From Xenophilus sp. (GTDB taxonomy: Bacteria; Pseudomonadota; Gammaproteobacteria; Burkholderiales; Burkholderiaceae_C), in contig JASGDG010000412.1 of NCBI GenBank assembly GCA_047607325.1, forward strand, positions 17,711-81,710: a stretch of 64,000 nt of DNA. The letters run 5' to 3'. Shown here piece after piece: positions 24,136 through 39,077 of the stretch; the stretch's first letter is position 1, and each line of letters opens with the position of its first letter. The notes under the pieces were generated by a model, which did no database searches, was not told the DNA's origin, and saw nothing but the letters and a program-made list of their open reading frames with translations. Made by a program: the position numbers and the translations under genes.

Positions 24136-24215
24136 TGACCACAAAACCTGTCCGGGAGGGGTGCCCCTCCGGGGGAGCCTCCGGTAAAATCGCTTGTTTA
24201 GAGGGGCAGAAAAGA

Positions 24216-25632: not shown

Positions 25633-25923
25633 ATGAGCAACCGATTCAAGAAAGCCGTCATCGACGACGTGACCGCGCGCAACATCGACGCCAGCCTGCA
25701 AGAGAACCTGCTTGACCTGTTCGAGTCGGCCATGAAGTCGGTGGCCACGACGCTGGTGCGCGAGGCAAAATTCGACACCACCGATTTCGCCACCGCGAAG
25801 ATGCGCGGCTGCGAGGGCTTCACGCTGCTGGTGAGCCGCGCCCGCGCGGATTCCCGCGACGGCTGGTTCGGCGCGTTTCAGCGGGGTGACGAACGCCTCG
25901 ACGTGATCGGCCATCTGGAATAA
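25633..25923 (+). CDS. Small hypothetical protein
   Basis: GGAG RBS; 96 aa; preceded by hairpins. Confidence 0.7.
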   Translation: MSNRFKKAVIDDVTARNIDASLQENLLDLFESAMKSVATTLVREAKFDTTDFATAKMRGCEGFTLLVSRARADSRDGWFGAFQRGDERLDVIGHLE

Positions 25924-25926
25924 CCC

Positions 25927-26868
25927 TCACTCCTCCGCCTCGGGCACGTCCCAGTCCGCCCGGCGCGCTTCGCCGGTCTGGTAGAACTGCTTCACCAGCT
26001 TCACGTACTCCAGAAAATCCTTGTTCTCCGTGGCCAGCCGGTTGGCCATGTCCCAATCGATCTCGTCGCGCTCGCGGGCCGGAATCAGCACTTGGCTGTC
26101 AGCGGGGTTGTCCACGTCCAGCTTGATGAAGCCGATGCCGTGGGCCGCGAAGAGCATCCGCAACTCCTTCAGCGTGTCCTGCCCGCCGACCTCCGCCGCG
26201 ACCAAGTAGCCGAAGTTGGCCCACGACGAGTTCGACACCGCCTGAAAGAAGCACTCGCGCACGTTCGAGCGGTTGATCAGCAGCTTGACCTCGAACGACC
26301 ACAGCTTGGTGCGCTTGTCGGAATACTGGGTCACGCAGTCGCGCACTTCCTGATGCCAGTCCGCGCTCAAATCCTCCATACCCACCACGTCCGGGTAGAG
26401 CCAGCGGTTGCCGTTCGGCCCGCGCTTGTTCGATGACCGCTTCTCGTCCACGCGCTTGGAATACAAGCCGAACTCCTCCCACAGATACTGCGAGAGCAGC
26501 GGGTACAAGGCGTGCTCGTCGAGCTTGGGCTGCCCGGCGTCCGCCGCCGTGGTGGCCGCCGCGCTTTCGACCGCCGCCACCTCCGCGCTGTCGGACTTCT
26601 CCGAGTAGTAATACTTGCGCGGACGGCCCTCCGTCGTCTTCACCTCCGGGTGCCGCTTCTGCAACACCGGGCGCTGCGAGCTGATCTCGGCGACCAGTTG
26701 CTGCACCAGCTCGGCATCGTTGGTGATGAACTTGCTGCCCGCCTTCTTGGCCTGACACTCGGCGGGGAACGTGGCGAACACCCACTCGGCGATCTGCCGC
26801 GCGGTGAACTTCTCTTCGGGCCGTTCCTTCAGGTAGCCAACGACAGCCTTCGCCAGATTGAGTGCCAT
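25927..26868 (-). CDS. COG2958/HrgA-like protein: N-terminal HTH plus PD-(D/E)xK nuclease
   Basis: EHALYPLL...RVDEKRSSNKRGPNGNRWLYPDVVG...SFEVK...FFQAVSNSSWANFGYLVA. Confidence 0.85.
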   Translation of the reverse strand: MALNLAKAVVGYLKERPEEKFTARQIAEWVFATFPAECQAKKAGSKFITNDAELVQQLVAEISSQRPVLQKRHPEVKTTEGRPRKYYYSEKSDSAEVAAVESAAATTAADAGQPKLDEHALYPLLSQYLWEEFGLYSKRVDEKRSSNKRGPNGNRWLYPDVVGMEDLSADWHQEVRDCVTQYSDKRTKLWSFEVKLLINRSNVRECFFQAVSNSSWANFGYLVAAEVGGQDTLKELRMLFAAHGIGFIKLDVDNPADSQVLIPARERDEIDWDMANRLATENKDFLEYVKLVKQFYQTGEARRADWDVPEAEE

Positions 26869-26877
26869 ATCGGTTCC

Positions 26878-27483
26878 TTACTTGGTGTTCGGCGAAGCGG
26901 AAGAAGCCCGGCGCAACGTGGCGGGCAGAAACTTGTCGATCTCCTCGTCCGAGAACGTCAATTCCTCCTGCGCCTTCAAGCCATCACTGGCAATTCCGTA
27001 GGCTTTGGCATTCGTTCTTGGTGCTGCGGCATAGATGCCCGCGAGCCTTGCTTGCAGCGCATCGCGTTTCTCCCGCGCTGCCGGAATGTCCAGATTGCCG
27101 TCGTGAAGGTCGGAAAGGATGGAAAAATAGGATTCCCGTATATCCCACAGTTCACTGGCCGTTTTCTTGTGCTTCTCCGCTTGCTGGCCGGGGTCAACGT
27201 CCTTCATATACGACGTCAACACCAGCAGGATGGTCGAAAACAAAGTCGAAATGACCGTGGCAATTTGGGCGACCTTTGGATCACCAAGCAACGCCGTGAT
27301 CAAACCGCCGGTGGTGATGGCGGACAAAACGATTTGCACAATCTTGACCCGCTGAAGTCGCCCCATGCACAGATCGGCACATTTTTCGTGCGTCTTGGTC
27401 GAGTAAACAACGCGCCCGAAGCATTCGCGTATTTGAGCCTCGATGGCCTCTTTTCCAGCTTCAGGTTGGGTAGTTGGTTCCAT
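26878..27483 (-). CDS. SLATT-family two-TM effector
   Basis: ECFGRVVYSTKTHEK, two hydrophobic helices, then HKKTASELWDIRESYFS; RBS and ATG lie inside the CD-NTase 3' end. Confidence 0.85.
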   Translation of the reverse strand: MEPTTQPEAGKEAIEAQIRECFGRVVYSTKTHEKCADLCMGRLQRVKIVQIVLSAITTGGLITALLGDPKVAQIATVISTLFSTILLVLTSYMKDVDPGQQAEKHKKTASELWDIRESYFSILSDLHDGNLDIPAAREKRDALQARLAGIYAAAPRTNAKAYGIASDGLKAQEELTFSDEEIDKFLPATLRRASSASPNTK

Positions 27484-28336
27484 ATATCTCTCTCCAGCGT
27501 TGACGGGCTGTCCAGCCGTACTTGTCGCCCTGATAGCCGCAGGCATCGACAGCAATGTTCTTGCACCGAAGGGCCTTGTATTCGAAGCCGCCCGTTCGCC
27601 AAACGTACTGATTCGCCCCTGGAGAGAGCCAGTAGTTCTGCTTTTCATTTTGCCCGGCAACGTATTCGAAGAAATCTCGGCTCATGAAATCGTAGTAAAG
27701 AAACGACTTATCTCGGTATTGGTAATTCCGGATGAAATAATAGGCCAGCGTGTCAATCAACAGGCCGCTGATCGGAGCGCTCCACTCCTTCTTCCATGCG
27801 CGGGCCATCTTGCAGAGGTTTTTCAGATTCCCGTTGCATTCCCTGTCCATCCGATTGATCTCGGCAATTTCGGGACGCGGATTGGTGGTCTTCCAGCTTC
27901 CGCCGCCGTTCGAGTCGGGATAGGTGAAGCTGTCATTGGTATTCTCAAACGCAGGCAGCACCTCGAAGGTGACGCCATCGGTGAACGCCACCACGACAAC
28001 CTGACCGTCCGCGCCGATCTGCGTTGTCGGATAGGTTTTCTGCAAGGCATTCCGGAACAACTGCAACAGCGCGGACTGGCCGTTGCCGACGTAGCTGTTG
28101 TACGTGTTGTAGTAGGAAACGGGAAGCCAGAAGATCATGTCCACGTCGCTCGTCGCGCCCGTGGCCGTGTTGCGACCATAGGAACCGGCGTAGATGCTGT
28201 GGTACGCCTTGGAATCCACGCTCCAGAATTCGAGGTTGAACCTGCGCGTGATCAGCTCGTAGCGATCCGAGATGGAGCTACGGTTCGTCACGGCCAGATT
28301 GCCGCAGAAAGTGCCAAAGTCTTCGCCGACGCCCAT
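27461..28336 (-). CDS. SMODS/CD-NTase (cGAS/DncV-like nucleotidyltransferase)
   Basis: GSYGRNTA...SDVD, third acid in FEVLPAF, YPDSNGGGSWKTTNP; 291 aa; paired with SLATT. Confidence 0.88.
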   Translation of the reverse strand: MGVGEDFGTFCGNLAVTNRSSISDRYELITRRFNLEFWSVDSKAYHSIYAGSYGRNTATGATSDVDMIFWLPVSYYNTYNSYVGNGQSALLQLFRNALQKTYPTTQIGADGQVVVVAFTDGVTFEVLPAFENTNDSFTYPDSNGGGSWKTTNPRPEIAEINRMDRECNGNLKNLCKMARAWKKEWSAPISGLLIDTLAYYFIRNYQYRDKSFLYYDFMSRDFFEYVAGQNEKQNYWLSPGANQYVWRTGGFEYKALRCKNIAVDACGYQGDKYGWTARQRWREIYGTNYPT

Positions 28337-28355
28337 TTCTGTCCCTTTCTGCTTC

Positions 28356-31300
28356 TCACGGGCCCGCCTGCGGCGGCGCGGGCGGTGTAGTACCGGGGTG
28401 ATAGGTCGAGTCGAACACCATGTCCGCCAGCCAGCGTTTGAAGTTGGCGTTGTCGCTGAACTGCTTGAACAGTTCGGTGTGGTCATCCAGCAGTTCCAGC
28501 ACCACGCGGTTGAGTGCCTTGTCGTGCTCCAGCCGGGCGTTCTGCTTGCCGGAGTTGGCCTGCGCGTTCTGATACGCCTTGTCCTGCGCCACGCGCGCGG
28601 GGATTTCCTCGGTGATGACCTTCCTGATTTTGTCGGCATCGTGCCACTCGATGTTGCCGAACAGGTCGTTGAACTGCTTGATGACGTTCGAGAGCCTGTC
28701 CAGGTCCGGCTCGCCGCCACCACCGCCGCCGCTGGGCGGCGGCGGTTCGACGAAGGCGTCCGCGTCGTCCAGCGCCATCTTCATCGCCGCCTGCGCCTGC
28801 GCGCGGTAGCTGTCCATGTCGATGGCTTCCAGCACGCCTTTGGATAGGTCTTCCTCCTTCGGAGCGGGCAGCTTCGGAATCAGGAGGTTCAGGAAAATCG
28901 ACAGCTTCTCCCACGCCGGATGCCCGTAGGGCAGGATCGCCGACAGGAAACCATAGCTGCGCACGAACGCCTTGGCCTTGCCTTTGAACTTGACCTGATC
29001 GTCCTCGCCGAGTTTGCTGGCGTATTCGGCCACGCAGACATCGAGAATGGGATCGAGCTTGTCGCGGTCGGCACCGGACAGATACAACGCCACCAAGTCA
29101 TCCACCTGCTGGGTGCTGTATACCTGCTGCGCGTCCAACTCGGCCTTAATGTCGTGCAGCTTGTTCGGGTCGGTTTCGCCGTCCTGAATCGTGGCGCGGT
29201 AATACTCCTGAAACGCCGCCTTCACCGCCTCGGCGTTGTCGGCGAAGTCGAGCACGAAGGTGTCCGCCTTCTGCGGATGCGCGCGGTTCAGGCGCGACAG
29301 CGTCTGCACCGCCAGCACGCCCGCCAGCGGCTTGTCCACATACATGGTGTGCAGCAGCGGTTCGTCGAAGCCGGTAACGAACTTATTGGCGACGATCAAG
29401 AAGCGATACGGGTCTTGTTTGAGCTTGGCTGGAATGTCCTTGCTCGGAAAGCCGTTGAGGTCGGCCTCGGCCTTCTTCGATCCGCCAATCTCGAAGTCGC
29501 CGGAATACGCGACGATGGCCTTGTAGGGGCTTTTGATTTCGGCGAGGTAGTCCGACACCTCCCGGAAGTAGTCGATGGCCCGCGCAATGCCGTTGCAGAC
29601 GATCATCGTCCGCGCCTTGCCGCCGATCTTCTTCGCGCCGATCACCTGCGCGGTGAAGTGATCGACCATGATCTCCGCCTTGCGGCGAATGGCCTTGTCG
29701 TGCGATTCGACGTAGCGCCGGATTTTCTTCAGCGCCTTCAGCTTGTCCACCTGCGGGTCGTCCTCGATGGTCTTGGCGACGTGGTAGAAACTGTCCACCG
29801 GCGTGTAGTTGGCGATCACGTCGAGGATGAAGCCCTCCTGTATCGCCTGCTTGGTGGTGTAGGTCAGTTCCTCCGGCGAGCGGAACTGCACCTTGTCGCC
29901 CACCGTCACCCGTTCGCCGAACAACTCCAGCGTCTTGGTCTTCGGTGTAGCGGTGAAGGCGTAGTAGCTGGCGTTGGCCAGCAGCTTGCGCGAAGCGATG
30001 CGCTTTTCGATTTCGGCATTCACCGCATCCTGCGTGGAATCCTCCTCGAACTCCTCTTCAGTCACACCACCCAGCGCCTGATGCATCTTGGCCGTGGTCT
30101 TGCCGCCCTGACTGGAATGTGCCTCGTCGATCAGCAGCGCGAACTTGCGGTCGCCGAGGTCGCCCAGCTCGTCGAGGATGAAGGGGAACTTCTGCACCGT
30201 AGTGATGATGATCTTCTTGCCCCGGCGCAGGAAGTCGCGCAGTTCCTGCGCGTTGTCCGAGTGGCCGAGGATCGAGGCCACATGGTCGTAGCCCTTGATG
30301 GTCTTGTGAATCTGGGTGTCCAGCGCGCGCCGGTCGGTGATGACGATGACCGAGTCGAACTGCGCCTGCGTTTCGTCCGTCGCCGTCTTCAACTCCACCA
30401 ACTGGTGTGCCAGCCACGCAATGGTGTTGCTCTTGCCGCTGCCCGCCGAGTGCTGGATCAGATAACGCTGGCCCACGCCGTCGGCGCGGCTGCGGCGCAG
30501 CAGGGCGCGCACCGTGCGCAACTGGTGGAAGCGCGGAAACACCGGCTTGCGGGTCTTGCGCCGCCTGCCGCTGGCATCTTCCTCCTCGTCCTCCACCACC
30601 TGCGCGTAGTTCTCGATGATGTTCGCCAGCGAATCCTTCACCAGCACCTGCTTCCACAGGTAATCGGTCTTGATGCCATTGGGATTCGGAGGGTTACCCG
30701 CGCCGCTGTTCCAACCCTGATTGAACGGCAGGAACCACGACGCCTTGCCCTTCAACTCGGTGCAAAAACGCACCTCGGCATCGTCCACCGCCATGTGCGC
30801 GATACAGCGGCCAGACTGGAACAACAACTCCTTCGGGTCACGCGTGGTTTGGTATTGGACGATGGCGTCCGCCACCGTCTGCTTGGTCAGCGAGTTCTTC
30901 AACTCGAAGGTCAGCATCGGCAGGCCGTTGATGAAGGTCACCAAGTCCAGCTCGTTGCCCGAATCGTTGCTGTAGCGCACCTGCCGGGTGATGCTGAAGA
31001 TGTTCTTGCCGAAGGCTTCGGCCGCGCTGACGTTGCCCGGCGTGGGCAGCAGCTTGTAAAGATCGACCGTCACCGGCCCGTGGCTCACGCCCTTGCGCAA
31101 CACATCTACCACGCCGCGCTTGGTGATCTCGCCTTGCAGCCGGTGCAGGAACTGCGTGCGCTGGATACCGTCGGAGGCGAGGTTCAGCGTTTCCACCACC
31201 TTGGGTTGGGTGGCGTGCAGGAACTCCAGCAGCTTCGATACGTCCAGCGCCACGTCGCGGTTGTAGTCGCTCGCCCGGCCCAGCACGTAGCCGCCCGGCG

Positions 31301-31421
31301 CATACACCGATATCGGCTCCTGCACCGTGTTCGCCGGAACTGGCGGGTGCTCGCTGATGCCCGCCAGATGGCGCACAATCAGCCTTTCCAGTTCCTTCTC
31401 GCTGGTGTCGGTCGGTTTCAT
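28356..31421 (-). CDS. hsdR: Type I restriction endonuclease subunit R
   Basis: Nuclease DLVTFINGLP...ELK; helicase QHSAGSGKS, IDEAHSSQ, FTATP, TGFDEP, QTLSRLNR. Confidence 0.95.
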   Translation of the reverse strand: MKPTDTSEKELERLIVRHLAGISEHPPVPANTVQEPISVYAPGGYVLGRASDYNRDVALDVSKLLEFLHATQPKVVETLNLASDGIQRTQFLHRLQGEITKRGVVDVLRKGVSHGPVTVDLYKLLPTPGNVSAAEAFGKNIFSITRQVRYSNDSGNELDLVTFINGLPMLTFELKNSLTKQTVADAIVQYQTTRDPKELLFQSGRCIAHMAVDDAEVRFCTELKGKASWFLPFNQGWNSGAGNPPNPNGIKTDYLWKQVLVKDSLANIIENYAQVVEDEEEDASGRRRKTRKPVFPRFHQLRTVRALLRRSRADGVGQRYLIQHSAGSGKSNTIAWLAHQLVELKTATDETQAQFDSVIVITDRRALDTQIHKTIKGYDHVASILGHSDNAQELRDFLRRGKKIIITTVQKFPFILDELGDLGDRKFALLIDEAHSSQGGKTTAKMHQALGGVTEEEFEEDSTQDAVNAEIEKRIASRKLLANASYYAFTATPKTKTLELFGERVTVGDKVQFRSPEELTYTTKQAIQEGFILDVIANYTPVDSFYHVAKTIEDDPQVDKLKALKKIRRYVESHDKAIRRKAEIMVDHFTAQVIGAKKIGGKARTMIVCNGIARAIDYFREVSDYLAEIKSPYKAIVAYSGDFEIGGSKKAEADLNGFPSKDIPAKLKQDPYRFLIVANKFVTGFDEPLLHTMYVDKPLAGVLAVQTLSRLNRAHPQKADTFVLDFADNAEAVKAAFQEYYRATIQDGETDPNKLHDIKAELDAQQVYSTQQVDDLVALYLSGADRDKLDPILDVCVAEYASKLGEDDQVKFKGKAKAFVRSYGFLSAILPYGHPAWEKLSIFLNLLIPKLPAPKEEDLSKGVLEAIDMDSYRAQAQAAMKMALDDADAFVEPPPPSGGGGGGEPDLDRLSNVIKQFNDLFGNIEWHDADKIRKVITEEIPARVAQDKAYQNAQANSGKQNARLEHDKALNRVVLELLDDHTELFKQFSDNANFKRWLADMVFDSTYHPGTTPPAPPQAGP

Positions 31422-32482
31422 ATGCTCTCCAGCAGGCGGGCAATGGCTTTGGGCGACGGCAACTGGTCTTTCAGTTCCTTCGGCAGCGTCTTGGTGATTT
31501 CGTAGGTCGCCACGCCGATGGGTTTGCGCGCGTCATGCAGGGCGTATTCGACGATGGTGCGGGTTTTCTCCTTGCACAGGATGATGCCGATGGACGGGTT
31601 CTCGTCCTCCTGCCGCACCTGCGCATCCAGCGCCGTGAGGTAGAACTGCATCTTGCCGACGAACTCCGGCTCGAACTCGCCGATCTTCAACTCGACGGCG
31701 ACCAGCGCGCGCAAGCGCCGGTGGAACAGCAGCAGGTCGATGAAGTATTCCTTGCCTTCCACCTCCAGCCGGTACTGGCTGCCCATGAAGGCGAACATGC
31801 CGCCCATCGCTCGCAGGAAGTCCTCGATGCGGGCGATCAGCGCGCGTTCCAGCTCGCGCTCGCTGTGCTGCTCGCCCAGTTCGAGGAAGTCGAAGGCGTA
31901 CTCGTCCTTCACCGCCAGCTTCGCCTGTGCGCGCAGGGCGGGCGTGAGCGCTTTGTCAAAGTTGGTCTGGCCGAGCAGCGATTTCTCGTAGCTCTGGTTG
32001 TCGATCTGGTGTACGAGCACGTTCTTCGACCAGCCGAACTTGCGCGTCATGCGCAGGTAGAACTCGCGCTCCTGTGCATCCTTGCAGCGTTCGAGGATGA
32101 CGAGGTTGTGGCTCCAGCCAATTTCTCGCACCAGTGGTGCGAGTTTTTCCGTGGCGCTGTAGGTCTCGAAAAAGCCCTTCATCCGCCACAGGTTGGACGC
32201 CGAGAAGCCGCCCGTGCCCGGAAAATCGGCCTGAAGGTCGGCGGCAAGCTGCGCCACCACGGCTTTTCCCCAACCTTCGCTCTGCTGCCGATCCACGATC
32301 AGCCGCCCGATGTCCCAATACAGGCCGACCAGCTCCTTGTTGACCGCGCGTAGCGCCGCGTACTGGGCGGACTGGATGCGTGCCTTCACCTCCGCCAGCA
32401 GGGCCGGATAGTCCTTCGCCGCAGCAGTTTCTCGCACCGCCGGTGCGAGTTTCTTGCGAGTGGTTTTCTTACTCGTCGCCAT
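31418..32482 (-). CDS. yhcG: YhcG/DUF1016 PD-(D/E)xK nuclease-domain protein
   Basis: VNKELVGLYWDIG, GFSASNLWRM, KDEYAFDFL, IDLLLFHRRLRALVAVELK, GKMQFYL. Confidence 0.92.
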   Translation of the reverse strand: MATSKKTTRKKLAPAVRETAAAKDYPALLAEVKARIQSAQYAALRAVNKELVGLYWDIGRLIVDRQQSEGWGKAVVAQLAADLQADFPGTGGFSASNLWRMKGFFETYSATEKLAPLVREIGWSHNLVILERCKDAQEREFYLRMTRKFGWSKNVLVHQIDNQSYEKSLLGQTNFDKALTPALRAQAKLAVKDEYAFDFLELGEQHSERELERALIARIEDFLRAMGGMFAFMGSQYRLEVEGKEYFIDLLLFHRRLRALVAVELKIGEFEPEFVGKMQFYLTALDAQVRQEDENPSIGIILCKEKTRTIVEYALHDARKPIGVATYEITKTLPKELKDQLPSPKAIARLLESI

Positions 32483-33866
32483 CGGCGGCCTCCTCGACAG
32501 GTTCGGCTTCATCGTCGCCCAGCGCGGCGAGGTGGTCGTCGCTTACAGCATCGTCCGGGCCGGGCTGCCAGCCGCGCAAATCCACCTGGCCGGTGACGGC
32601 ATCGGCAATCAGACGGTCGCGATACTCGCGGATCAGCTTGATTTCGTCCTCGGTGCGGGAAATGGCTTCGTCGAGGGGCGCACTTTCGGACTGAATGCGT
32701 GCAACGATAGTCTGCTGCTCGGTCATGGTCGGCAAGGCCACTGGGAAACGCCCCAGTACGGTTTCCGCAATGGCTGGATACGCGATGCCGATGGAGTTGG
32801 CCGTCACGCGGTTCACGAAGGCGCTGCTCTGGATGACGTAGCCGAGGTATTCGGGCTCGATGCTCTTGCCCGGCGTGAGCACCGCGAAGCCCGTGGAAGC
32901 AATCAGGTCGTCGGCATCCTCGTTGACGAACCAGATGGCTTTCAGGTACGTCCGAACGGTTGAGATGATGGTGTCGCCTCGGCGTAAAACACGGCGCGCG
33001 CGGGACGGCGCAGCCCCGAAGCGGAGGCGTTCCAGCTCTTTCGCCAAACGCCCCGTTTTCACGGAGCCAATGTCTACGTAGCGGAACTCGAAGTCCGGGT
33101 CGGTCTTATCGCCGAGCGTGCTGGCATTGAGGCGCACCCACCGCTTCAGCGGTTTGATTTCCCAATGCTCCGGCACATCGCCCAGCCATTCGATGCCGGA
33201 AGATTTGAGCTTGACGGACGCATCGAGGCCGCGCGTGACGGCGTGGTCGATGATGCGCAGCTTCTGTTCGGTCAACAGCGCGATGAGATCGCGCTTGGCC
33301 TTGATGAAGCGGGCGATGTGCGCGTCCTGTGCGCGCAGGTAGGCAACGATCTGGTCTTGCTCGGGGCGCGGGGGTTGCAGCAGCGCGATGTCGAGGAACT
33401 GGTTCGGATACAAGCGCAGGCGCGAAGAACGGATACCGGTCGAACGCCCGATGTATTCGGCGACGTAGGCGCGTGTGCGTAGCAGGTAGTCCAGATACGC
33501 CGGATTGAAGCTGTCGGCGCGGTGCGGGCGATACACGCCGTAGGCCGGGCTGACGATGCCCGCGTGTGTGCTCGCGCCCAACGCCGCCATCCACGCCCAC
33601 AGCGTGTTGATCACGATGTCGCCGGGGCGGCAGAGCTTGGAGCCGACGTAGCTCGCAGCCTTGAACATGGTCACGTTCTTCTGGCTGCGCGGCGTGACGC
33701 CGGTGAGGTGCGACACCGACAGCAGTTCTTCCTGCCCAGTCTTCGAGCGTTCGTCCACCTCGCGGAAGAAGGTTTTGGCGCGCTGCTCGTTCCAGTGTTC
33801 AGGCACGGGCGGCAGCCAGCGCATTCGCGCCGTTCGGTAGCCCGGATAGGATTTTTCCGCCGCCAT
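32469..33866 (-). CDS. hsdS: Type I restriction specificity subunit S
   Basis: Two TRDs, each followed by P-x-x-x-EQ; conserved linker LLTEQKLRIIDHAVTRGLD...SGIEWLGDVPEHW. Confidence 0.93.
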   Translation of the reverse strand: MAAEKSYPGYRTARMRWLPPVPEHWNEQRAKTFFREVDERSKTGQEELLSVSHLTGVTPRSQKNVTMFKAASYVGSKLCRPGDIVINTLWAWMAALGASTHAGIVSPAYGVYRPHRADSFNPAYLDYLLRTRAYVAEYIGRSTGIRSSRLRLYPNQFLDIALLQPPRPEQDQIVAYLRAQDAHIARFIKAKRDLIALLTEQKLRIIDHAVTRGLDASVKLKSSGIEWLGDVPEHWEIKPLKRWVRLNASTLGDKTDPDFEFRYVDIGSVKTGRLAKELERLRFGAAPSRARRVLRRGDTIISTVRTYLKAIWFVNEDADDLIASTGFAVLTPGKSIEPEYLGYVIQSSAFVNRVTANSIGIAYPAIAETVLGRFPVALPTMTEQQTIVARIQSESAPLDEAISRTEDEIKLIREYRDRLIADAVTGQVDLRGWQPGPDDAVSDDHLAALGDDEAEPVEEAADGDE

Positions 33867-36247
33867 CACGCCGTTCCCACGATCTTGTCGAGCAAACCTT
33901 CGGTCTGCTGTTCCAGCTTCAGGATGTCGGCGCGGATTTCCGCCAGCGAGCGCAGCGGCGCGGGCCTGTAGAAGTAGCGGGCGAAGGAGATTTCGTAGCC
34001 GACCTGGGTCTTCTCGCCGTCCACCCACGCATCGCTGGCGTGCGGCAGAATTTCGCGCCGGAAGAACGCCTCGATGCCGCCTGGCTCCTTCAGCGGCACC
34101 TGCTCCGTATCGCGCAGATCGCTGTCGGGTTCGTACTCGACCATGAAGCGATCCTTGCCCACGGTTTCCAGGTACGCGCCGTCGAAGCCCGGCTCGAAGT
34201 GTTCGCCTTTCTTCAGCTTGGTGCGCTTGGCGACCACCGGCGGCGCAGTCTCGTCGCGCCAGCTCACGGCCTTGAAGATGGCCTTCTTGTCTGCGGCGGA
34301 GAGCTTCTTGTCGTGCGCCTTCATCGCCGCGTCGAATTGAGTGCGGAAGACGTTGTGGTCGTCGAACACGGCATCGCCGAGTTCCTTCTGCGCCAGCAGC
34401 GCCAGTTCCAATAGCGCCTTGTCGCGTTGCCACGTCGCGGCATCGAGCAGCTTCTTGCGGCGTTTTTCGGGCACGGCTTTCTTGGCCGGTGTGCTGTCTT
34501 CACCTTCATCCTCGCCGCCGTCGGCGTCTTCCTCCTCGCTGTCGCCCTTCAGCCATGCCTCGATCTCCGGTTTCAGTTTGGCGAAGTCGGTGTAGAGCTT
34601 CTCGCCGTACTTGCCCCACAGTTCGGCGCGCAGGGCTTCGTCGCCCGACGCGAAGCGCAGGGTTTCGATGGCGCTGGTTTTCAACTGGCTTTTCAGGCGC
34701 AGCGGGCGTTCGACGGTGATCTTCCAGTAGCCAAAGTCCTGTGTGTCGAACCATTTGGACTGCGAGGTCTCCTGCGCCTCGCCCAAGTAGATGTCGAGAA
34801 TGCGCTGGATGTCGGCCTCCGCCAGCTCGCAGTTCTTCTTGCCGAGGTTGCGGCGCAGCGGCTGGAACCACCCACTCGCATCGATCAACTGCACCTTGCC
34901 ACGGCGCACGGCGGCCTTGCGGTTGGCCAGCACCCAGATGTAGGTGGCGATGCCGGTGTTGTAGAAGATGTTGAGCGGCAGGGCGATGATGGCTTCGAGC
35001 CAGTCGTTTTCCAGCACCCAGCGGCGGATGTTGCTTTCGCCTTGCCCGGCGTCGCCAGTGAACAAGGCCGAGCCGTTGTGGACGAGGGCGATGCGGCTGC
35101 CCACGCCGTCGGTGGGCGCGTTGCGCTTCATCTTGGACAGCTTGTTCACGAGGAACATGAGCTGACCGTCGCTGGAGCGGGTGATGAGCTTGAGTTCGGG
35201 GTTGTCGCCGTGGCTGACGATGAAGCGCGGGTCATTGAAGCCCTGCTTGCCGCCCATGCGCTCCAGATCGGTCTTCCAACTCTTGCCGTAGGGCGGGTTG
35301 GAGATCATGAAGTCGAATTCGCGGCTGCGGAACTGGTCGGCGGAGAGCGTGGATTTGTCCGCGCCGCCGACGATGTGTTCGGCCTCGTCGCCTTCGCCCT
35401 TCAAGAGCAGGTCGGCCTTGCAGATGGCGTAGGTTTCGGGGTTGATCTCCTGCCCGAACAGGTGAATGGAAACCTCCTTGTCGTGGTCGTCGGCCAGTTC
35501 CTGCAAGGTTTCCTCGGCTACGGTGAGCATGCCGCCGGTGCCGCAGGAGCCGTCGTAAAGCAGGTAGGTGCCGGATTGGATTTTTTCCGCCACGGGCAGG
35601 AACAGCAGCTTGGCCATGAGCTTGACCACGTCGCGCGGCGTGAAGTGCTCACCCGCTTCCTCGTTGTTTTCTTCGTTGAAGCGGCGGATGAGTTCCTCGA
35701 ACACGGTGCCCATGCCGTGGTTGTCCAGCGGCGGCAGCTTCACGCGGCCGTCGGCATCCTTCACCGGCAGCGGCGAGAGATTGATCTCCGGGTCGAGGAA
35801 GTCTTCGATCAGGTAGCCGAGGACGTGAGCATCCACCAGCGTTTGAATCTGGTCGCGGAATTTGAACTTGGTGAGGATTTCCTGCACGTTGGGCGAGAAG
35901 CCGTCCAGATACGCGATGAAGTCTTCGCGCAGGCGTTGCCCCTGACTGCTGGCCTTGAGCTTGGCGAGCGTGAATTCAGAGGTGTTGTAGAACGCCTGCC
36001 CCGCCGACATGCGCAGCGCGCCGTCCTGCTCGGCCACCTTGTGCGCATCGAGAAACTTCTTGCGCTCCAGCACCGCCTGTTTGGTGGATTCGAGCACGGC
36101 ATCGAGCCGCCGCAGCACGGTGAACGGCAGGATCACGTCGCGGTACTTGCCGCGCACATAGACGTCGCGCAGGCGGTCGTCCGCGATGTTCCAGATGAAG
36201 TCGGAAAGCCATTTGATCTGGCTTTGGTCTTGGTGTTTTTTCTGCAT
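33866..36247 (-). CDS. hsdM: Type I restriction methyltransferase subunit M (m6A)
   Basis: GEHFTPRDVV, YDGSCGTGG, FGQEIN, ISNPPYG, LPLNIFYNTGIATYIW. Confidence 0.95.
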   Translation of the reverse strand: MQKKHQDQSQIKWLSDFIWNIADDRLRDVYVRGKYRDVILPFTVLRRLDAVLESTKQAVLERKKFLDAHKVAEQDGALRMSAGQAFYNTSEFTLAKLKASSQGQRLREDFIAYLDGFSPNVQEILTKFKFRDQIQTLVDAHVLGYLIEDFLDPEINLSPLPVKDADGRVKLPPLDNHGMGTVFEELIRRFNEENNEEAGEHFTPRDVVKLMAKLLFLPVAEKIQSGTYLLYDGSCGTGGMLTVAEETLQELADDHDKEVSIHLFGQEINPETYAICKADLLLKGEGDEAEHIVGGADKSTLSADQFRSREFDFMISNPPYGKSWKTDLERMGGKQGFNDPRFIVSHGDNPELKLITRSSDGQLMFLVNKLSKMKRNAPTDGVGSRIALVHNGSALFTGDAGQGESNIRRWVLENDWLEAIIALPLNIFYNTGIATYIWVLANRKAAVRRGKVQLIDASGWFQPLRRNLGKKNCELAEADIQRILDIYLGEAQETSQSKWFDTQDFGYWKITVERPLRLKSQLKTSAIETLRFASGDEALRAELWGKYGEKLYTDFAKLKPEIEAWLKGDSEEEDADGGEDEGEDSTPAKKAVPEKRRKKLLDAATWQRDKALLELALLAQKELGDAVFDDHNVFRTQFDAAMKAHDKKLSAADKKAIFKAVSWRDETAPPVVAKRTKLKKGEHFEPGFDGAYLETVGKDRFMVEYEPDSDLRDTEQVPLKEPGGIEAFFRREILPHASDAWVDGEKTQVGYEISFARYFYRPAPLRSLAEIRADILKLEQQTEGLLDKIVGTA

Positions 36248-36258
36248 CGATACTTTCC

Positions 36259-37995
36259 TCAGCTCGCCGCCGATTCGGGGACCTTTTCGTCCGAGGCCGC
36301 GACGGCGAGATTCCAATGTTGTTTGAGCACGCTCACGAGGCGCTTCTGCCGTTCGGTCAGGAGCTTGGGCGTCCATTCGCCTTCCGACCGAACCTCCTGC
36401 GTCAGCACGAAGGGCGATGCCTTGCCTTTGCCCTTGAAGTAAACGTCCTTCTTCTTGGCAAAGTCGTAGTTGCTGGCGGAAGAGTTTTTGTTCCGATCCA
36501 GCGGAACCAGGTTGGCTAGACGGTGCGTCCATGCATCGCGCTCGTCCTCGTCAGGGAACCACTGGAGCCAGTCCGAACCATCGGGCGGCGTTTGCGGCAG
36601 GACGTGCTCCAGCGACATGGCATTCTGGAGTTGCACGCCGGGGGCACGCACCAGCGATTCGAGGCGCAAGACCAGCGCCATGCGCGCCTTCGGCAGGTTG
36701 CGGTAGATGTCGCCGTCGAGCGCGGCGACGAACTCGCGCTTCTGCTTGTCGGTGAGGGCCAGCGTTTTCAGCGCGGCCACATCGCCATCGAAGGCGTCCG
36801 GCTCGATTTCCTTCGTGAGCGCGGCGTAGGTCTCGATGCGCTCGTTGATGCCGACGCGCGTGACGAGCAGGAAATAGGTCAGCCGCTCCAGCGTCTGGAA
36901 GAACTCGGCGAGCCGCTTGGGCTGCTGGCGGAACCGCTTGAAATAGACCAGCGCCGGAGGCACCCAGTCCTTGAAGTCCACGCGGTTGAGCCACGACAGG
37001 TGCTCGTTGATGGTTTCCGCCAGTTCCGTGGCCTCGAAGTCGGCGTCGCGCACGAAGTCCCAGACCTCGGCATAGGGCTTGATGACCTTGTCGACGAGGT
37101 CGATGGGCTTTTTGTATTCGGCGACGTGTTCCTGAAATTCCTTGACCAGCGTCGCCCGCTGCTTCTGCTTGGCGTAGATGGCGCGGATGTGGACGAACAG
37201 GTCGCCAAAGCCTTCGCGGCCCAGCGTGTTTTCGATGCGGCTCCATTCCTTCGCGTAGGCGCGGCTCTTGGGTTCGCCCGCCGTGGTGCGGATCAGGCCC
37301 AGCACTTCGGCCTTGATGATGTCGATGGGCGCGAGGTCGAGGCCCCGGTTGTTGAGCACCGAGAAGATGCGGTAGGCGGCTTCGAGGTCGGGCGTGGAGA
37401 TGACGACCAGCGAGCAGTCGTTGGCGAGGAATTTCCACAAAGCGTCCAGATCGGCGGCGGGCAGCGCCTTGGCCCGCTCCAGCAGCAGCGCGGCGTTTTC
37501 GCGGAAGCGCAGGCGGCTGTCGTCGAGCCTGGCGGTGCTGGCGACCAACTGCGCGATGCCGCCCGGCTCCTGCACGTTGGCGCGGAAGAAGTCGGCGTCT
37601 TCCTCGCGGGCGATCAGGCGGTACTCGTTTTTCTCGCCGAGGCTGATCTTGCCCTTCTTGTAGAGGAAGTCGGTGATGTCGTCGGCGGCGTGCGGCATGG
37701 CCTCGCGCAGCACCGCGAACAGCATCGTCAGCGTGGACAGACGCTGCTGGCCATCGACGACGGATGACTTCGGTTCGCGGTCGTTCTTGATGAGGACGAT
37801 GCTGCCGAGGAAATACTGGCTGCCCGCGCCGCCGAGGCGGGCTTCCTGCATGGCCGAGACCAGATCGTCGAACAGTTCGCCCGCCTGCTCGGTCGTCCAT
37901 GCGTAGGGGCGCTGGTAGTCCGGAATCTCGAACTGGTAGCTGCCCTCGAAGATCTCGCGGATCAGTTTGTCGTGGGCTTCGAGTGTCTTGGCCAT
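36259..37995 (-). CDS. DUF262-DUF1524 GmrSD-family nuclease (type IV-like)
   Basis: IPDYQRPYAW, VVDGQQRLSTL, FSVLNNRG, EHVLPQ...LANLVPL...KN. Confidence 0.9.
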   Translation of the reverse strand: MAKTLEAHDKLIREIFEGSYQFEIPDYQRPYAWTTEQAGELFDDLVSAMQEARLGGAGSQYFLGSIVLIKNDREPKSSVVDGQQRLSTLTMLFAVLREAMPHAADDITDFLYKKGKISLGEKNEYRLIAREEDADFFRANVQEPGGIAQLVASTARLDDSRLRFRENAALLLERAKALPAADLDALWKFLANDCSLVVISTPDLEAAYRIFSVLNNRGLDLAPIDIIKAEVLGLIRTTAGEPKSRAYAKEWSRIENTLGREGFGDLFVHIRAIYAKQKQRATLVKEFQEHVAEYKKPIDLVDKVIKPYAEVWDFVRDADFEATELAETINEHLSWLNRVDFKDWVPPALVYFKRFRQQPKRLAEFFQTLERLTYFLLVTRVGINERIETYAALTKEIEPDAFDGDVAALKTLALTDKQKREFVAALDGDIYRNLPKARMALVLRLESLVRAPGVQLQNAMSLEHVLPQTPPDGSDWLQWFPDEDERDAWTHRLANLVPLDRNKNSSASNYDFAKKKDVYFKGKGKASPFVLTQEVRSEGEWTPKLLTERQKRLVSVLKQHWNLAVAASDEKVPESAAS

Positions 37996-38011
37996 TGCGG
38001 TGGTTCTTCCC

Positions 38012-38911
38012 TTATCGTTTTTTCGGATTCGCCGGGGCTTGGTAGCCGGGAGCCAGCTTGGCGTTCTCGACACCGTACAAGGCCAGCGGGTCGGCGAGCC
38101 ACAAGCGGTACTGTTCTTCGGTGAGGCGGTGGTCGGGCGAGCAGTCCACGCTCCAGCGCAACAGCATGTAGCCCGCGACCGCCGCGCGCACGCGCATGCG
38201 GATCGCGCCATCGGTCATGGCGTAGTCCATGCGGATGATTTCGGGTCGGGCCAGACGAGGGTGCGGCACGAAGTCCAGCTCGACGATGCGCGTCCACTGG
38301 ATGTCGTTGTCCGGGCGCTCGTGGGCTTGGGGCTCCTCGTCGAGCAGGGTTGGCGCTTCGATGCGGGTGACGACGAAGTCGCGGAACTCGCCGCTTTTGC
38401 GGTCGAAGGCGCGGACGTGCCAGCGCAGGCCGGTGTCCACCAAGGCGAAGGGAACGATGGCCCGCTGCGTCTTGCCGCTGCTCATCGAGTGGTAACGGAT
38501 GGCGACCGGTCGCTTGGCGTGGATGGCGCGGCAGATCGGAGCCAAAACGTCCATCTTGGGGTTGCTCAAGGCCGTGGGTGACTCGCAGGGCAGCAATGGC
38601 GCGGACGCCGCGTTCAGCCCGTCGCCGAAGCCCAAGGCCAGCGACGACAGCACGCGCTGCGAGGCGTGCTCGAAGATCGGCGCGAAGGTCTTGCCGATCC
38701 GGTACACCTTGCTGCTGCCGTCGAACTCGATGTTCTTGGGGGCGATTTCTCGGTACAGCGCCAGATCGCGGGTTGCGCCTGCGGGCGCCACGCCGAAGCG
38801 GTCGATGAGATCGGGGCGGCCTATTTCGCCGAGGAAGTAGAGCCGGAAGTCGATGTAGGCCAGCCGCTCACGCTGGGCATGGCTCAAGCTTTCGACACGC
38901 TGTGGATGCAT
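38012..38911 (-). CDS. WYL-domain transcriptional regulator (BrxR/CapW-like)
   Basis: N-terminal wHTH (RLAYIDFRLYFLG...ATRDLALY); WYL core RWHVRAFDRKSGEFRDFVVTRI; first gene of the defence run. Confidence 0.9.
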   Translation of the reverse strand: MHPQRVESLSHAQRERLAYIDFRLYFLGEIGRPDLIDRFGVAPAGATRDLALYREIAPKNIEFDGSSKVYRIGKTFAPIFEHASQRVLSSLALGFGDGLNAASAPLLPCESPTALSNPKMDVLAPICRAIHAKRPVAIRYHSMSSGKTQRAIVPFALVDTGLRWHVRAFDRKSGEFRDFVVTRIEAPTLLDEEPQAHERPDNDIQWTRIVELDFVPHPRLARPEIIRMDYAMTDGAIRMRVRAAVAGYMLLRWSVDCSPDHRLTEEQYRLWLADPLALYGVENAKLAPGYQAPANPKKR

Positions 38912-38988
38912 GGTTGGGTTCCTTACCCGCGACCGGCACAGGCCGGTCTGGAAGCAAACGCTCGACTATTCATGATTCGGCATCATAC

Positions 38989-39005
38989 ATCATCAAAGTG
39001 ATGAT
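38989..39005. promoter_or_regulatory. Palindromic operator candidate in the divergent promoter
   Basis: ATCATCA-AAG-TGATGAT perfect inverted repeat in an AT-rich spacer between the WYL gene and the + strand operon. Confidence 0.55.
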
Positions 39006-39077
39006 ATTATGGGGCCAATCTTGGTCTCTGGCAAACGGTCGGGCCTGCGCCCGGCCACCGCCCGAAGGGGATGGACG

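What the first reader, a model, noticed from the sequence alone, without database searches (positions are those of the whole stretch)
25927..38911. 13-kb single-strand layered defence operon led by a WYL regulator
Seen: WYL, GmrSD-like, hsdM, hsdS, yhcG, hsdR, CD-NTase, SLATT and HrgA-like genes are all on the minus strand with gaps under 20 nt or overlaps. Established: BrxR/CapW-type WYL proteins regulate defence loci; type I RM cuts unmodified DNA, GmrSD-type enzymes target modified DNA, and CD-NTase/TM-effector systems cause abortive infection. Inference: one transcript stacks three or four defence layers under one sensor, with the suicide module near the end.
Basis: partly seen in the sequence, partly recalled or inferred. 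Interest (0 to 1): 0.7.

Follow-up and report, generated by a model that had tools for sequence, protein, structure and literature searches.

The report
BrxR-led stacked restriction and CBASS operon
Nine tightly packed phage-defence genes sit behind one BrxR-type regulator, and they turn out to be one copy of a widely shared operon "chassis" whose fixed slots take different defence cassettes; the kind is known, but this example is clear and well documented.

Summary
Nine intact minus-strand genes span 25927-38911: BrxR-type WYL regulator, GmrSD, HsdM, HsdS, YhcG, HsdR, CD-NTase, SLATT 2TM effector and a COG2958/HrgA nuclease. They are separated by at most 19 nt or overlap. The run ends at HrgA, because a conserved 96-aa gene converges on it.

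Three results support it:
- The only good sigma-70 match lies upstream of brxR.
- It abuts a palindrome, ATCATCA-N3-TGATGAT, present in 16 of 16 related loci, including enterobacterial plasmids.
- No intergenic gap has room for a promoter.

The arrangement is not unique. BrxR-(GmrSD)-hsdM-hsdS-hsdR-(cassette)-HrgA recurs at 80-90% protein identity across many genera, in predicted prophages and on plasmids. The CBASS pair fills a slot that is a 34-nt gap in a near-identical relative. Two unrelated CBASS cassettes fill the same slot elsewhere. A sister genome (Ca. Dactylopiibacterium carminicum) has lost the whole operon through a microhomology deletion.

BrxR-led islands and defence genes embedded in type I R-M operons are both published, so this is a new member of a known kind. 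The link between CBASS cassettes and HrgA, and a conserved 16-codon leader ORF, remain unexplained.

The parts
39006..39034 (-). Sigma-70-like promoter upstream of brxR: -35 TTGCCA, 17-nt spacer, -10 CATAAT
   Evidence: 10 of 12 matches, the best site in 23500-40000. Only 2 sites were found against 1.9 expected by chance. The TTG of the -35 and the -10 align across 13 related loci.
38989..39005 (-). Perfect palindrome ATCATCA-CTT-TGATGAT abutting the -10; candidate BrxR operator
   Evidence: Read. The core TCATCAnTTTGATGA is invariant or nearly so in alignment A3. It is present with at least 5 of 7 complementary arm positions in 16 of 16 BrxR-led loci, including Enterobacter and Klebsiella plasmids. 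E. fergusonii BrxR binds an inverted repeat between its promoter and brxR (PMC9122601).
38923..38973 (-). Conserved 16-codon upstream ORF (MNSRAFASRPACAGRG); its stop lies in the brxR ribosome-binding site
   Evidence: The ATG is invariant in 13 of 13 aligned loci. The ORF is 16 codons in 11 of 16 loci and 13-20 in the others, and it overlaps the brxR start in plasmid copies. No Rfam match. Translation is not shown.
38012..38911 (-). brxR: BrxR/CapW-family wHTH-WYL transcription regulator, 299 aa
   Evidence: Pfam WYL 7.8e-14. PDB 7QFZ E 3.8e-89 over residues 6-291; CapW 9C5G 2.4e-37; Acinetobacter BrxR 7T8K 3.5e-22.
36259..37995 (-). GmrSD-family type IV (modification-dependent) restriction enzyme, 578 aa
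   Evidence: GmrSD_N 1.2e-36 and GmrSD_C 1.5e-23. PADLOC Orf5 2e-146 and HEC-06 3e-67. The DGQQR motif is visible in the translation.
33866..36247 (-). hsdM: type I methyltransferase, 793 aa
   Evidence: HsdM_N + N6_Mtase. PADLOC MTase_I 1.2e-256. NPPY and GxGG motifs are visible.
32469..33866 (-). hsdS: type I specificity subunit, 465 aa, with two target-recognition domains; its start shares one base with the hsdM stop
   Evidence: PADLOC Specificity_I 8.9e-107, full length. Pfam Methylase_S. One half is swapped relative to L002.
31418..32512 (-). yhcG: DUF1016/YhcG PD-(D/E)xK nuclease embedded between hsdS and hsdR (PADLOC candidate PDC-S02)
   Evidence: DUF1016_N 7.9e-47 and YhcG_C 6.2e-63. 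PDC-S02 1.1e-151. Its stop overlaps the hsdR start by 4 nt.
28356..31421 (-). hsdR: type I restriction/translocase subunit, 1021 aa
   Evidence: HSDR_N, SWI2_SNF2/ResIII and T1R_D3-like. PADLOC REase_I 2.6e-43. Walker A and DEAH motifs are visible.
27461..28336 (-). CD-NTase (SMODS) cyclase, 291 aa; first gene of a two-gene type I CBASS cassette
   Evidence: SMODS 9e-44. PADLOC cyclase PDLC00786 4.3e-130. NCBIfam CBASS_cyclase_b 104.7 bits, below its 200-bit cut-off. GS...DVD motif in the sequence. GC 0.555 against 0.62-0.66 for its neighbours.
26878..27483 (-). SLATT_4 two-transmembrane CBASS effector, 201 aa; its start overlaps the cyclase by 23 nt
   Evidence: SLATT_4 1.9e-65. PADLOC 2TM effector PDLC00696 2.7e-76. 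GC 0.548.
26869..28361 (-). Extent of the CBASS cassette relative to the empty site in L002 (1493 nt here, 34 nt there)
   Evidence: blastn of L002 against the window and junction sequences. The same cassette lies colinear with hsdR and hrgA in L027 at 78% nucleotide identity.
25927..26868 (-). hrgA-like: COG2958/DUF511 protein, 313 aa, with an N-terminal winged helix and a PD-(D/E)xK nuclease domain; last gene of the run
   Evidence: 4428 homologues, named COG2958 or HrgA by NCBI. Invariant E118, P159-D160, E193-x-K195 and Q209 in 31 sequences down to 49% identity. AF2 model pLDDT 82; no significant PDB fold match, winged-helix hits only for the N-terminus. Predicted nuclease in PMC3045609.
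25633..25923 (+). p96: conserved 96-aa gene convergent on hrgA; it marks the end of the operon and travels with hrgA
   Evidence: Translation matches genes called in L002 and L007. It lies directly after HrgA in 41 of 63 genome loci and 49 of 49 IMG/VR loci. No Pfam, PADLOC or PHROG hit.

Best explanation
This is a horizontally mobile composite defence operon carried in the accessory region of a prophage-like element.

Shown: a BrxR-family wHTH-WYL regulator is the first gene. Behind it, on one strand and without room for intergenic promoters, lie a GmrSD type IV enzyme, a complete type I R-M system (hsdM, hsdS, hsdR), a YhcG nuclease embedded between hsdS and hsdR, a two-gene type I CBASS (CD-NTase plus SLATT pore-forming effector) embedded between hsdR and the last gene, and a COG2958/HrgA PD-(D/E)xK nuclease. 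Also shown: the operon is one instance of a conserved chassis whose slots hold different cargo in different hosts. CBASS entered as a promoter-less cassette.

Inferred mechanism: transcription starts at the promoter upstream of brxR. BrxR dimers bind the palindrome abutting the -10 and repress their own operon, which keeps all modules at a low, balanced level. An unknown ligand of the WYL domain, produced during infection or DNA damage, relieves repression.

Inferred roles of the products, acting in parallel:
- HsdMS methylates host DNA, and HsdMSR cuts unmodified incoming DNA.
- GmrSD cuts hypermodified DNA that escapes type I restriction.
- If both fail, the CD-NTase makes a nucleotide signal that opens the SLATT pore and aborts the infection.
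- YhcG and HrgA are additional nucleases of unknown specificity.

Cassettes are probably exchanged by homologous recombination between the highly conserved flanking genes.
For: - Gene identities.
- Junction lengths and overlaps.
- The only strong promoter match lies upstream of brxR, and terminator-like sites are at chance level (20 found against 15.6 +/- 4.0 expected) with none in a minus-strand gap.
- Operator-like palindrome conserved in 16 of 16 loci from different genera and plasmids.
- Published BrxR biology (repressor that binds an inverted repeat between its promoter and brxR; homologues upstream of type IV, type I and CBASS systems): PMC9122601.
- Empty-site comparator: L002 has 97% nucleotide identity in hsdR, 92% in hrgA and a 34-nt gap between them.
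- Same cassette colinear in L027.
- Alternative CBASS cassettes in the same slot: 2TM + cyclase in L007, L024, L025, L034 and others; patatin + cyclase in L057, L183 and L185.
- Full chassis BrxR-GmrSD-hsdMSR-(cassette)-HrgA in Luteibacter, Nitrosomonas, Limnobacter and Propionivibrio, and BrxR-GmrSD-hsdMSR on Enterobacter plasmids.
- Prophage setting.
- Analogous operons shown experimentally to be led by a repressor or to hold embedded systems: PMC12255303 and PMC11411939.
Against:
- The promoter scan covers only a sigma-70 consensus in a 62-66% GC organism, so internal promoters inside coding sequence are not excluded.
- Some relatives keep the 2TM-cyclase-HrgA unit without an intact R-M system (L008) or after a 380-nt gap (L005). 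There it must be expressed some other way.
- The chassis also exists without BrxR: L002/L010 has an HTH_17 gene instead. BrxR is therefore not essential to the downstream genes.
- The CD-NTase scores below NCBIfam's CBASS equivalog cut-off.
- No activity of any module has been tested.
- A sister genome has deleted the whole operon, which shows it is dispensable and may be costly.
Confidence: 0.6

Rival explanations
1. The nine genes form several transcription units. BrxR controls only itself and perhaps gmrSD. The type I R-M genes and the CBASS cassette use promoters buried in upstream coding sequence, so the 'one sensor' idea fails and the tight packing only reflects compaction of a mobile island.
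For: - Classical type I loci use separate promoters for hsdMS and hsdR (my own knowledge).
- The chassis works without BrxR in L002/L010.
- The 2TM-cyclase-HrgA unit persists without an intact R-M system in L008 and after a 380-nt gap in L005.
- The promoter scan is insensitive in high-GC DNA.
Against: - Stop/start overlaps at hsdM/hsdS, hsdS/yhcG and yhcG/hsdR, and gaps of 9-19 nt elsewhere.
- Cassette insertions bring only ribosome-binding sites.
- No internal promoter match above chance.
- In pEFER no second promoter was detected downstream of brxR (PMC9122601).
Confidence: 0.3
2. The stack has no functional logic. Conserved flanking genes (the hsdR 3' end and the hrgA 5' end) simply make a recombination hotspot where any cargo accumulates, and the modules act independently.
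For: - Slot contents vary freely among near-identical chassis.
- hrgA was shown to replace a restriction gene by homologous recombination in H. pylori (PMC3045609).
- Hotspots between hsdS and hsdR are noted in PMC12255303.
Against: - Cargo is slot-specific in the sample: PRTase-CE only between hsdM and hsdS; YhcG, RhuM and HTH-M78 only between hsdS and hsdR; CBASS only before hrgA in this chassis.
- Three unrelated CBASS cassettes converge on one slot.
- This explanation is compatible with shared regulation, so it is not a strict rival.
Confidence: 0.35
3. The operon is a decaying relic in this genome and provides no defence.
For: - The sister genome Ca. Dactylopiibacterium carminicum END1 has deleted window 27452-41231 by microhomology.
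Against: - All nine reading frames are open and full length against family profiles, with catalytic motifs intact.
- Protein identity of 80-97% to many relatives argues for purifying selection.
Confidence: 0.08

Closest known systems
pEFER defence island of Escherichia fergusonii: BrxR, BREX and BrxU (GmrSD) (PMC9122601, PMC8565348)
   Same: - The first-gene regulator is a full-length homologue (PDB 7QFZ, E 3.8e-89).
- Both have an inverted repeat between the promoter and brxR.
- Both pair a methylation-based system with a GmrSD type IV enzyme on one strand.
- The paper already reports BrxR homologues upstream of type IV (17.6%), type I (16.2%) and CBASS systems.
   Different: - Here the methylation-based system is type I R-M, not BREX.
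- The GmrSD is closest to PADLOC Orf5/HEC-06 profiles, and the PDB search did not return BrxU.
- CBASS, YhcG and HrgA are added.
- The operator is a 7-N3-7 palindrome, against 11-N5-11 in pEFER.
RRDM island of enteropathogenic E. coli: RptR repressor, type I R-M and embedded DarTG2 (PMC12255303)
   Same: The first gene is an autorepressor. A type I R-M operon has an abortive-infection module embedded between its genes. The paper proposes the hsdS-hsdR junction as a recombination hotspot.
   Different: - The regulator family differs (9-kDa RptR against wHTH-WYL BrxR).
- The embedded module there is a toxin-antitoxin pair, not CBASS.
- Here the abortive module sits after hsdR, not between hsdS and hsdR.
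Vibrio cholerae VPI-2 type I R-M operon with embedded TgvAB (GmrSD-like) (PMC11411939)
   Same: Type I restriction and GmrSD-family type IV restriction share one operon. The authors argue that the two cover unmodified and hypermodified phages respectively.
   Different: TgvAB is a two-protein system embedded inside the R-M genes. Here a single-chain GmrSD precedes hsdM. No WYL regulator or CBASS is present there.
CapW-regulated CBASS (Stenotrophomonas maltophilia and others; PDB 7TB6, 9C5G; cited in PMC9122601)
   Same: A WYL repressor homologous to this BrxR (E 1e-27 to 1e-37) controls a CBASS operon.
   Different: From my own knowledge, CapW sits directly next to CBASS and is usually transcribed divergently. 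Here the regulator is 10 kb and six genes upstream of a minimal CBASS that lacks Cap2/Cap3.
Guilt-by-embedding survey of BREX, DISARM and type I R-M loci (bioRxiv 10.1101/2024.01.29.577857), and PrrC in EcoprrI
   Same: Defence genes are commonly embedded between the genes of type I R-M operons. YhcG (PDC-S02), RhuM (PDC-S05) and GmrSD (HEC-06) are PADLOC candidates of this sort.
   Different: A term search of that preprint for CBASS, WYL, DUF1016, hotspot and RhuM found none of them. HrgA was not searched there, and I did not read the preprint's supplement.

Membership tests
BrxR/CapW family of WYL transcription regulators | Full-length similarity covering the N-terminal wHTH, the WYL domain and the C-terminal dimerisation domain | tested here: met
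   phmmer against PDB: 7QFZ E 3.8e-89, query 6-291 of 299 against chain 7-293 of 295. CapW and Acinetobacter BrxR were also hit. Pfam WYL 7.8e-14.
BrxR/CapW family of WYL transcription regulators | Encoded at the head of, or beside, a defence locus, with an inverted repeat between its promoter and its start | tested here: met
   It is the first gene of the run. The palindrome at 38989-39005 abuts the -10 and is conserved in 16 of 16 loci.
BrxR/CapW family of WYL transcription regulators | Binds the repeat and represses transcription | not testable with these tools
   Needs EMSA and reporter assays.
Type I restriction-modification system | HsdM (N6-adenine methyltransferase with HsdM_N), HsdS with two target-recognition domains, and HsdR (nuclease + SF2 translocase), all intact | tested here: met
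   (MTase_I 1e-256; Specificity_I 9e-107, full length; HSDR_N, SWI2_SNF2 and T1R_D3). NPPY, Walker A and DEAH motifs were read.
Type I restriction-modification system | Methylates a bipartite motif and restricts unmethylated DNA | not testable with these tools
   Needs a SMRT or nanopore methylome and transformation or phage assays.
GmrSD family type IV restriction enzymes | N-terminal DUF262 (DGQQR NTPase/sensor) fused to C-terminal DUF1524 (His-Me finger nuclease) | tested here: met
   GmrSD_N 1.2e-36 at residues 12-231 and GmrSD_C 1.5e-23 at residues 430-555. DGQQR is visible. The PDB DUF262 protein 9JFL matches at 3e-16.
GmrSD family type IV restriction enzymes | Cleaves only modified (for example glucosyl-hmC) DNA | not testable with these tools
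   Needs phage assays with T4, T4gt and unmodified phages.
CBASS type I (cyclase + effector only) | CD-NTase with a GS...DxD active site | tested here: met
   SMODS 9e-44. PADLOC cyclase 4e-130, full length. GSYG...DVD is in the sequence. The NCBIfam equivalog score of 104.7 is below its cut-off of 200, so this is a divergent clade.
CBASS type I (cyclase + effector only) | An adjacent effector gene, and no Cap2/Cap3, HORMA/TRIP13 or Cap6-8 | tested here: met
   The SLATT_4 / PADLOC 2TM effector overlaps the cyclase by 23 nt. The neighbours are hsdR and hrgA only.
CBASS type I (cyclase + effector only) | A nucleotide second messenger activates the effector and aborts infection | not testable with these tools
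   Needs biochemistry and phage assays.
COG2958 / DUF511 (HrgA) PD-(D/E)xK proteins | About 310-320 aa, with an N-terminal winged helix and a canonical E...PD...ExK signature | tested here: met
   313 aa. Homologues are named COG2958 or HrgA. E118, P159-D160, E193-x-K195 and Q209 are invariant in 31 sequences. The AF2 N-terminus matches winged-helix folds only weakly. Description in PMC3045609. The Pfam library used gave no hit.
YhcG / DUF1016 (PADLOC PDC-S02) | DUF1016_N plus a YhcG_C PDDEXK domain, embedded in a defence locus | tested here: met
   It is located between hsdS and hsdR.

The most novel reading that the evidence does not exclude
The junction between the last restriction gene and the HrgA-p96 pair may be a dedicated docking site for minimal CBASS systems. 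Three unrelated two-gene CBASS cassettes occupy it: cyclase + SLATT_4, 2TM + cyclase, and patatin + cyclase-AGS_C. In 22 of 88 surveyed loci a CBASS lies directly upstream of HrgA. The adjacency could reflect function rather than only recombination. For example, the HrgA nuclease or the products of restriction might supply the signal that activates these sensor-less cyclases, or HrgA-p96 might act as a further CBASS component. A lesser novel point is that a conserved 16-codon leader ORF may couple translation to brxR expression.
Probability: 0.12. Interest if true: 0.75.

Novelty: new member of a known kind. Interest (0 to 1): 0.45.

Why it matters
How bacteria coordinate several immune systems is an open question. 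This locus is a compact natural case: one BrxR-type regulator sits in front of type IV restriction, type I R-M, two orphan nucleases and an abortive-infection CBASS.

Near-identical relatives differ by single cassettes (empty slot, alternative CBASS, no GmrSD, no BrxR), and a sister genome provides a natural clean deletion. That set is a ready-made allelic series for testing whether shared transcription, gene order and regulator control matter for layered immunity.

The same chassis sits on conjugative and IncF plasmids of Klebsiella and Enterobacter, so the regulatory logic may also bear on phage susceptibility of clinically important strains.

The conserved operator gives a concrete DNA target for BrxR-clade proteins. 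The unexplained CBASS-HrgA adjacency gives a first functional lead for the uncharacterised COG2958 family.

Tried and rejected
- HrgA identity: Pfam, PADLOC, NCBIfam, PHROGs and PDB sequence searches gave nothing.
- HrgA fold: the AF2 model (pLDDT 82) had no significant PDB fold match (best E 0.065). The nuclease assignment therefore rests on invariant motifs and on the literature.
- Extending the operon downstream to the PDC-M19B gene (24649-25479): I considered this and rejected it, because the 135-aa minus-strand ORF between them is spurious and the conserved p96 gene runs the other way.
- HrgA as the CBASS effector: rejected as the main reading, because every cassette brings its own effector and HrgA often occurs without a cyclase.
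- tRNA or attachment-site boundary: there are no tRNA genes in the window.
- Rfam: no RNA family in 23000-41000 at E <= 0.1.
- Leader RNA fold: only a modest z-score of -2.2, and by eye its main hairpin was not evident in a relative.
- Phage database: no HrgA homologue in 50,697 deposited phage genomes, although 53 IMG/VR contigs carry one.
- GC3: my GC3 figures used the wrong codon position for minus-strand genes and are not used. Only total GC is cited.
- Aggregate Pfam scan of 94 upstream ORFs: it returns only family counts, so per-locus labels come from tblastn and from two 10-protein scans.

Full report
**Observation**

The ORF map, with start codons fixed by ribosome-binding site and homology, gives nine minus-strand genes between 25927 and 38911. 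Pfam and PADLOC identify them, in order of transcription:

| Gene | Coordinates | Evidence |
|---|---|---|
| WYL regulator | 38012-38911 | Pfam WYL 7.8e-14 |
| GmrSD | 36259-37995 | GmrSD_N + GmrSD_C; PADLOC Orf5 2e-146, HEC-06 |
| HsdM | 33866-36247 | PADLOC MTase_I 1e-256 |
| HsdS | 32469-33866 | PADLOC Specificity_I 9e-107 |
| YhcG/DUF1016 | 31418-32512 | PADLOC PDC-S02 1e-151 |
| HsdR | 28356-31421 | HSDR_N, SWI2_SNF2, T1R_D3-like |
| SMODS CD-NTase | 27461-28336 | PADLOC cyclase 4e-130 |
| SLATT_4 2TM effector | 26878-27483 | Pfam 1.9e-65 |
| 313-aa protein | 25927-26868 | no profile hit |

The 313-aa protein has 4428 homologues. The closest named ones are called 'COG2958 family protein' or 'HrgA protein'.

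The junctions are +16, +11, -1, -44 (or -14), -4, +19, -23 and +9 nt.

I first thought the run continued to a PDC-M19B gene at 24649-25479. However, the intervening 135-aa minus-strand ORF is spurious. Relatives carry a conserved 96-aa gene on the opposite strand there, and the window encodes it at 25633-25923. The operon ends at HrgA, with the two stop codons 3 nt apart.

**The regulator and its control region**

The WYL protein is a full-length homologue of BrxR of E. fergusonii pEFER (PDB 7QFZ, E 3.8e-89, residues 6-291). It is more distantly related to CapW and to Acinetobacter BrxR.

The consensus scan of 23500-40000 found two promoter-like sites, against 1.9 expected by chance. The better one (TTGCCA-17-CATAAT, 10 of 12 matches) lies at 39034-39006, about 95 nt upstream of brxR. 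Directly abutting the -10 is a perfect palindrome, ATCATCA-CTT-TGATGAT, at 39005-38989.

I collected the regions upstream of close BrxR homologues from other genera and from Enterobacter and Klebsiella plasmids. The -10 and the palindrome core TCATCAnTTTGATGA are invariant or nearly so in a 13-sequence alignment. The palindrome is found in 16 of 16 loci at the same distance from the -10. Picton et al. showed that BrxR of pEFER is a repressor that binds an inverted repeat between its promoter and brxR (PMC9122601). The conserved palindrome is thus a strong candidate operator, although binding has not been shown.

Between the palindrome and brxR lies a short ORF whose ATG is invariant in the alignment. 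It is 16 codons long in 11 of 16 loci and 13-20 codons in the rest. It ends in, or overlaps, the brxR ribosome-binding site or start codon. No Rfam family matches the region.

**One transcript?**

Terminator-like sites are at chance level (20 found against 15.6 +/- 4.0 expected). All minus-strand ones are weak and lie inside coding sequence. No gap is long enough for a promoter, and four junctions are stop/start overlaps. This fits a single operon but does not prove it. Promoters buried in coding sequence therefore remain possible.

**Comparative anatomy**

The HrgA protein proved the best handle, because it is 80-94% identical across many genera. Neighbourhoods came from exact-protein look-ups, 80 loci from species-representative genomes and 53 IMG/VR contigs. 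I scored them with tblastn using the window's proteins.

The results show a recurrent chassis: BrxR-(GmrSD)-hsdM-[slot]-hsdS-[slot]-hsdR-[slot]-HrgA, followed by the convergent p96 gene.
- Complete BrxR-GmrSD-hsdM-hsdS-hsdR-HrgA versions occur in Luteibacter (L054) and Nitrosomonas (L072).
- A version with an alternative CBASS occurs in L121 and L024 (Limnobacter).
- Versions without GmrSD occur in L033, L047 and L125.
- BrxR-GmrSD-hsdMSR, at 82-86% protein identity, lies next to a Tn7-like tnsE on an Enterobacter IncFIB plasmid. About 90 enterobacterial plasmids carry a BrxR 80-90% identical to this one.

Slot contents, identified by Pfam and PADLOC, are slot-specific in this sample:

| Slot | Cargo seen |
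|---|---|
| hsdM to hsdS | PRTase-CE |
| hsdS to hsdR | YhcG; RhuM (PDC-S05); an HTH-M78 protein; a coiled-coil protein |
| hsdR to hrgA | empty, or a two-gene CBASS |

**The CBASS slot**

L002 and L010 come from a genome with the same flanking prophage genes. It is 97% identical in hsdR and 92% identical in hrgA at the nucleotide level. It has 34 nt between hsdR and hrgA where the window has 1493 nt. Similarity breaks in the last codons of hsdR and resumes at the hrgA ATG. The cassette brings only its own ribosome-binding sites. Its GC content (0.55) is lower than that of its neighbours (0.62-0.66).

The same cassette lies in the same place in L027, colinear at 78% nucleotide identity. Elsewhere the slot holds two unrelated CBASS pairs: a 173-aa 2TM effector with a 258-aa cyclase, and a patatin phospholipase with a 445-aa cyclase-AGS_C.

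I surveyed 88 loci that have a close HrgA and at least 1.4 kb of upstream sequence:
- hsdR lies directly upstream in 26.
- A CBASS pair lies directly upstream in 22.
- Something else lies upstream in 40. Of ten upstream ORFs examined, eight belonged to other restriction or defence operons (type I R subunit and YgjP, type I S, McrBC, BREX BrxL, a type III-like Res, PLD-SNF2, a Ser/Thr kinase). One was the core gene mnmE and one had no hit.

These counts are not phylogenetically independent.

**HrgA**

An alignment of 31 sequences down to 49% identity keeps E118, P159-D160, E193-x-K195 and Q209 invariant. This agrees with the published prediction that DUF511/COG2958 is a PD-(D/E)xK nuclease with an N-terminal winged helix (PMC3045609 and PMC3424549). 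The AF2 model is confident (pLDDT 82). It has no significant PDB neighbour; only weak winged-helix matches appear for the N-terminus. Its specificity is unknown.

**Genomic setting and loss**

The operon lies between a phage lysis/tail module and a serine-recombinase/ParB module. Evidence for the first is the lysozyme at 23197-24135 and tail genes shared with L002. Evidence for the second is the earlier notes and the same order in L010. Many IMG/VR prophage predictions end at or near HrgA-p96. The operon is therefore prophage-type cargo.

The closest named relative is Ca. Dactylopiibacterium carminicum END1 (L011). It is 88-98% identical to the window at the nucleotide level on both sides but lacks window 27452-41231. 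The junction falls in a 12-nt identity (GCCATCGAGGCT), within a 15-nt near-match, that is present at both ends in the window. That deletion removed brxR through the cyclase, the first codons of SLATT and part of the divergent operon. The operon is thus dispensable and can be lost in one step.

**Mechanism**

Shown: the gene content, the intactness of the genes, the packing, the conserved promoter and palindrome, the modular slots and the promoter-less nature of the CBASS insertion.

Inferred from established knowledge of the families:
- BrxR autorepresses from the palindrome and releases on an unknown WYL ligand.
- HsdMSR restricts unmodified DNA.
- GmrSD restricts hypermodified DNA.
- CBASS aborts infection through a nucleotide-activated SLATT pore.
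- YhcG and HrgA add nuclease activities of unknown trigger.

I put 0.6 on the single BrxR-controlled operon and about 0.3 on a multi-promoter arrangement.

**Comparison with the literature and verdict**

- BrxR homologues upstream of type IV, type I and CBASS systems, and islands holding three systems, are reported in PMC9122601.
- Repressor-led type I R-M operons with an embedded abortive module are reported for the EPEC RRDM island (PMC12255303).
- Type I R-M operons with embedded GmrSD-like genes are reported for V. cholerae VPI-2 (PMC11411939).
- Embedding in type I R-M loci was surveyed systematically in bioRxiv 10.1101/2024.01.29.577857.

The finding is therefore a correct and well-observed new member of a known kind. 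What goes beyond the published pattern, as far as my searches reached, is fourfold:
- the demonstration of a single widely transferred chassis with slot-specific cargo;
- the conserved operator of this BrxR clade;
- the short leader ORF;
- the repeated docking of unrelated minimal CBASS cassettes next to the uncharacterised HrgA-p96 pair.

These last points are leads, not results.

Noticed in passing
window 38923-38973 (-): A 16-codon upstream ORF lies between the candidate BrxR operator and brxR. Its ATG is invariant in 13 aligned loci. It is 16 codons long in 11 of 16 loci, and it overlaps the brxR start in Enterobacter and Klebsiella plasmid copies. It may be a leader peptide or a translational-coupling element.
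   Followed up: partly
window 25633-25923 (+): A conserved 96-aa gene (p96) with no family hit converges on hrgA with 3 nt between the stop codons. It accompanies HrgA in 41 of 63 genome loci and 49 of 49 IMG/VR loci. It may be a partner, inhibitor or regulator of HrgA.
   Followed up: partly
window 27452-41231 compared with L011 9417-9433: Ca. Dactylopiibacterium carminicum END1 has a 13.8-kb deletion of exactly this region, at a 12-15-nt microhomology (GCCATCGAGGCT). It retains a 5'-truncated SLATT gene and intact hrgA.
   Followed up: yes
L002/L010 12379-15470; L012, L031, L144, L145, L163: In relatives, a PRTase-CE gene occupies the hsdM-hsdS junction of the same chassis. In L002 the next called gene carries a NADAR Pfam hit and includes DNA matching parts of the window's hsdS, so it may be a NADAR-HsdS fusion or a merged gene call.
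   Followed up: partly
L055 and L155, about 4300-6200: A distant homologue pair of the window's cyclase (40%) and SLATT (47-49%) is embedded before the R subunit of a different BrxR-led R-M operon that also ends in YgjP-HrgA. This is a second, independent way of combining BrxR, R-M, CBASS and HrgA.
   Followed up: no
window 24216-25479: The DUF488 gene (24216-24692, +; Pfam 1.5e-29) and the 276-aa PDC-M19B gene (24649-25479, -; PADLOC 1e-57, phrog_25907) converge and overlap. The pair is conserved next to HrgA-p96 in L002-L004 and L011. No PDC-M19A partner was found.
   Followed up: partly
L141 (NZ_CP060738.1) 14496-24490: BrxR-DUF262-hsdM-hsdS-hsdR, 82-86% identical in protein to the window's genes, lies next to a Tn7-like tnsE on an Enterobacter IncFIB plasmid. 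About 90 enterobacterial plasmids carry a BrxR 80-90% identical to the window's. This copy has no HrgA.
   Followed up: partly
window 38912-39077: The brxR promoter and operator lie in the roughly 166-nt region shared with the divergent plus-strand operon (start about 39078). BrxR could therefore also control that operon. The divergent genes are not conserved next to BrxR in other genera.
   Followed up: no
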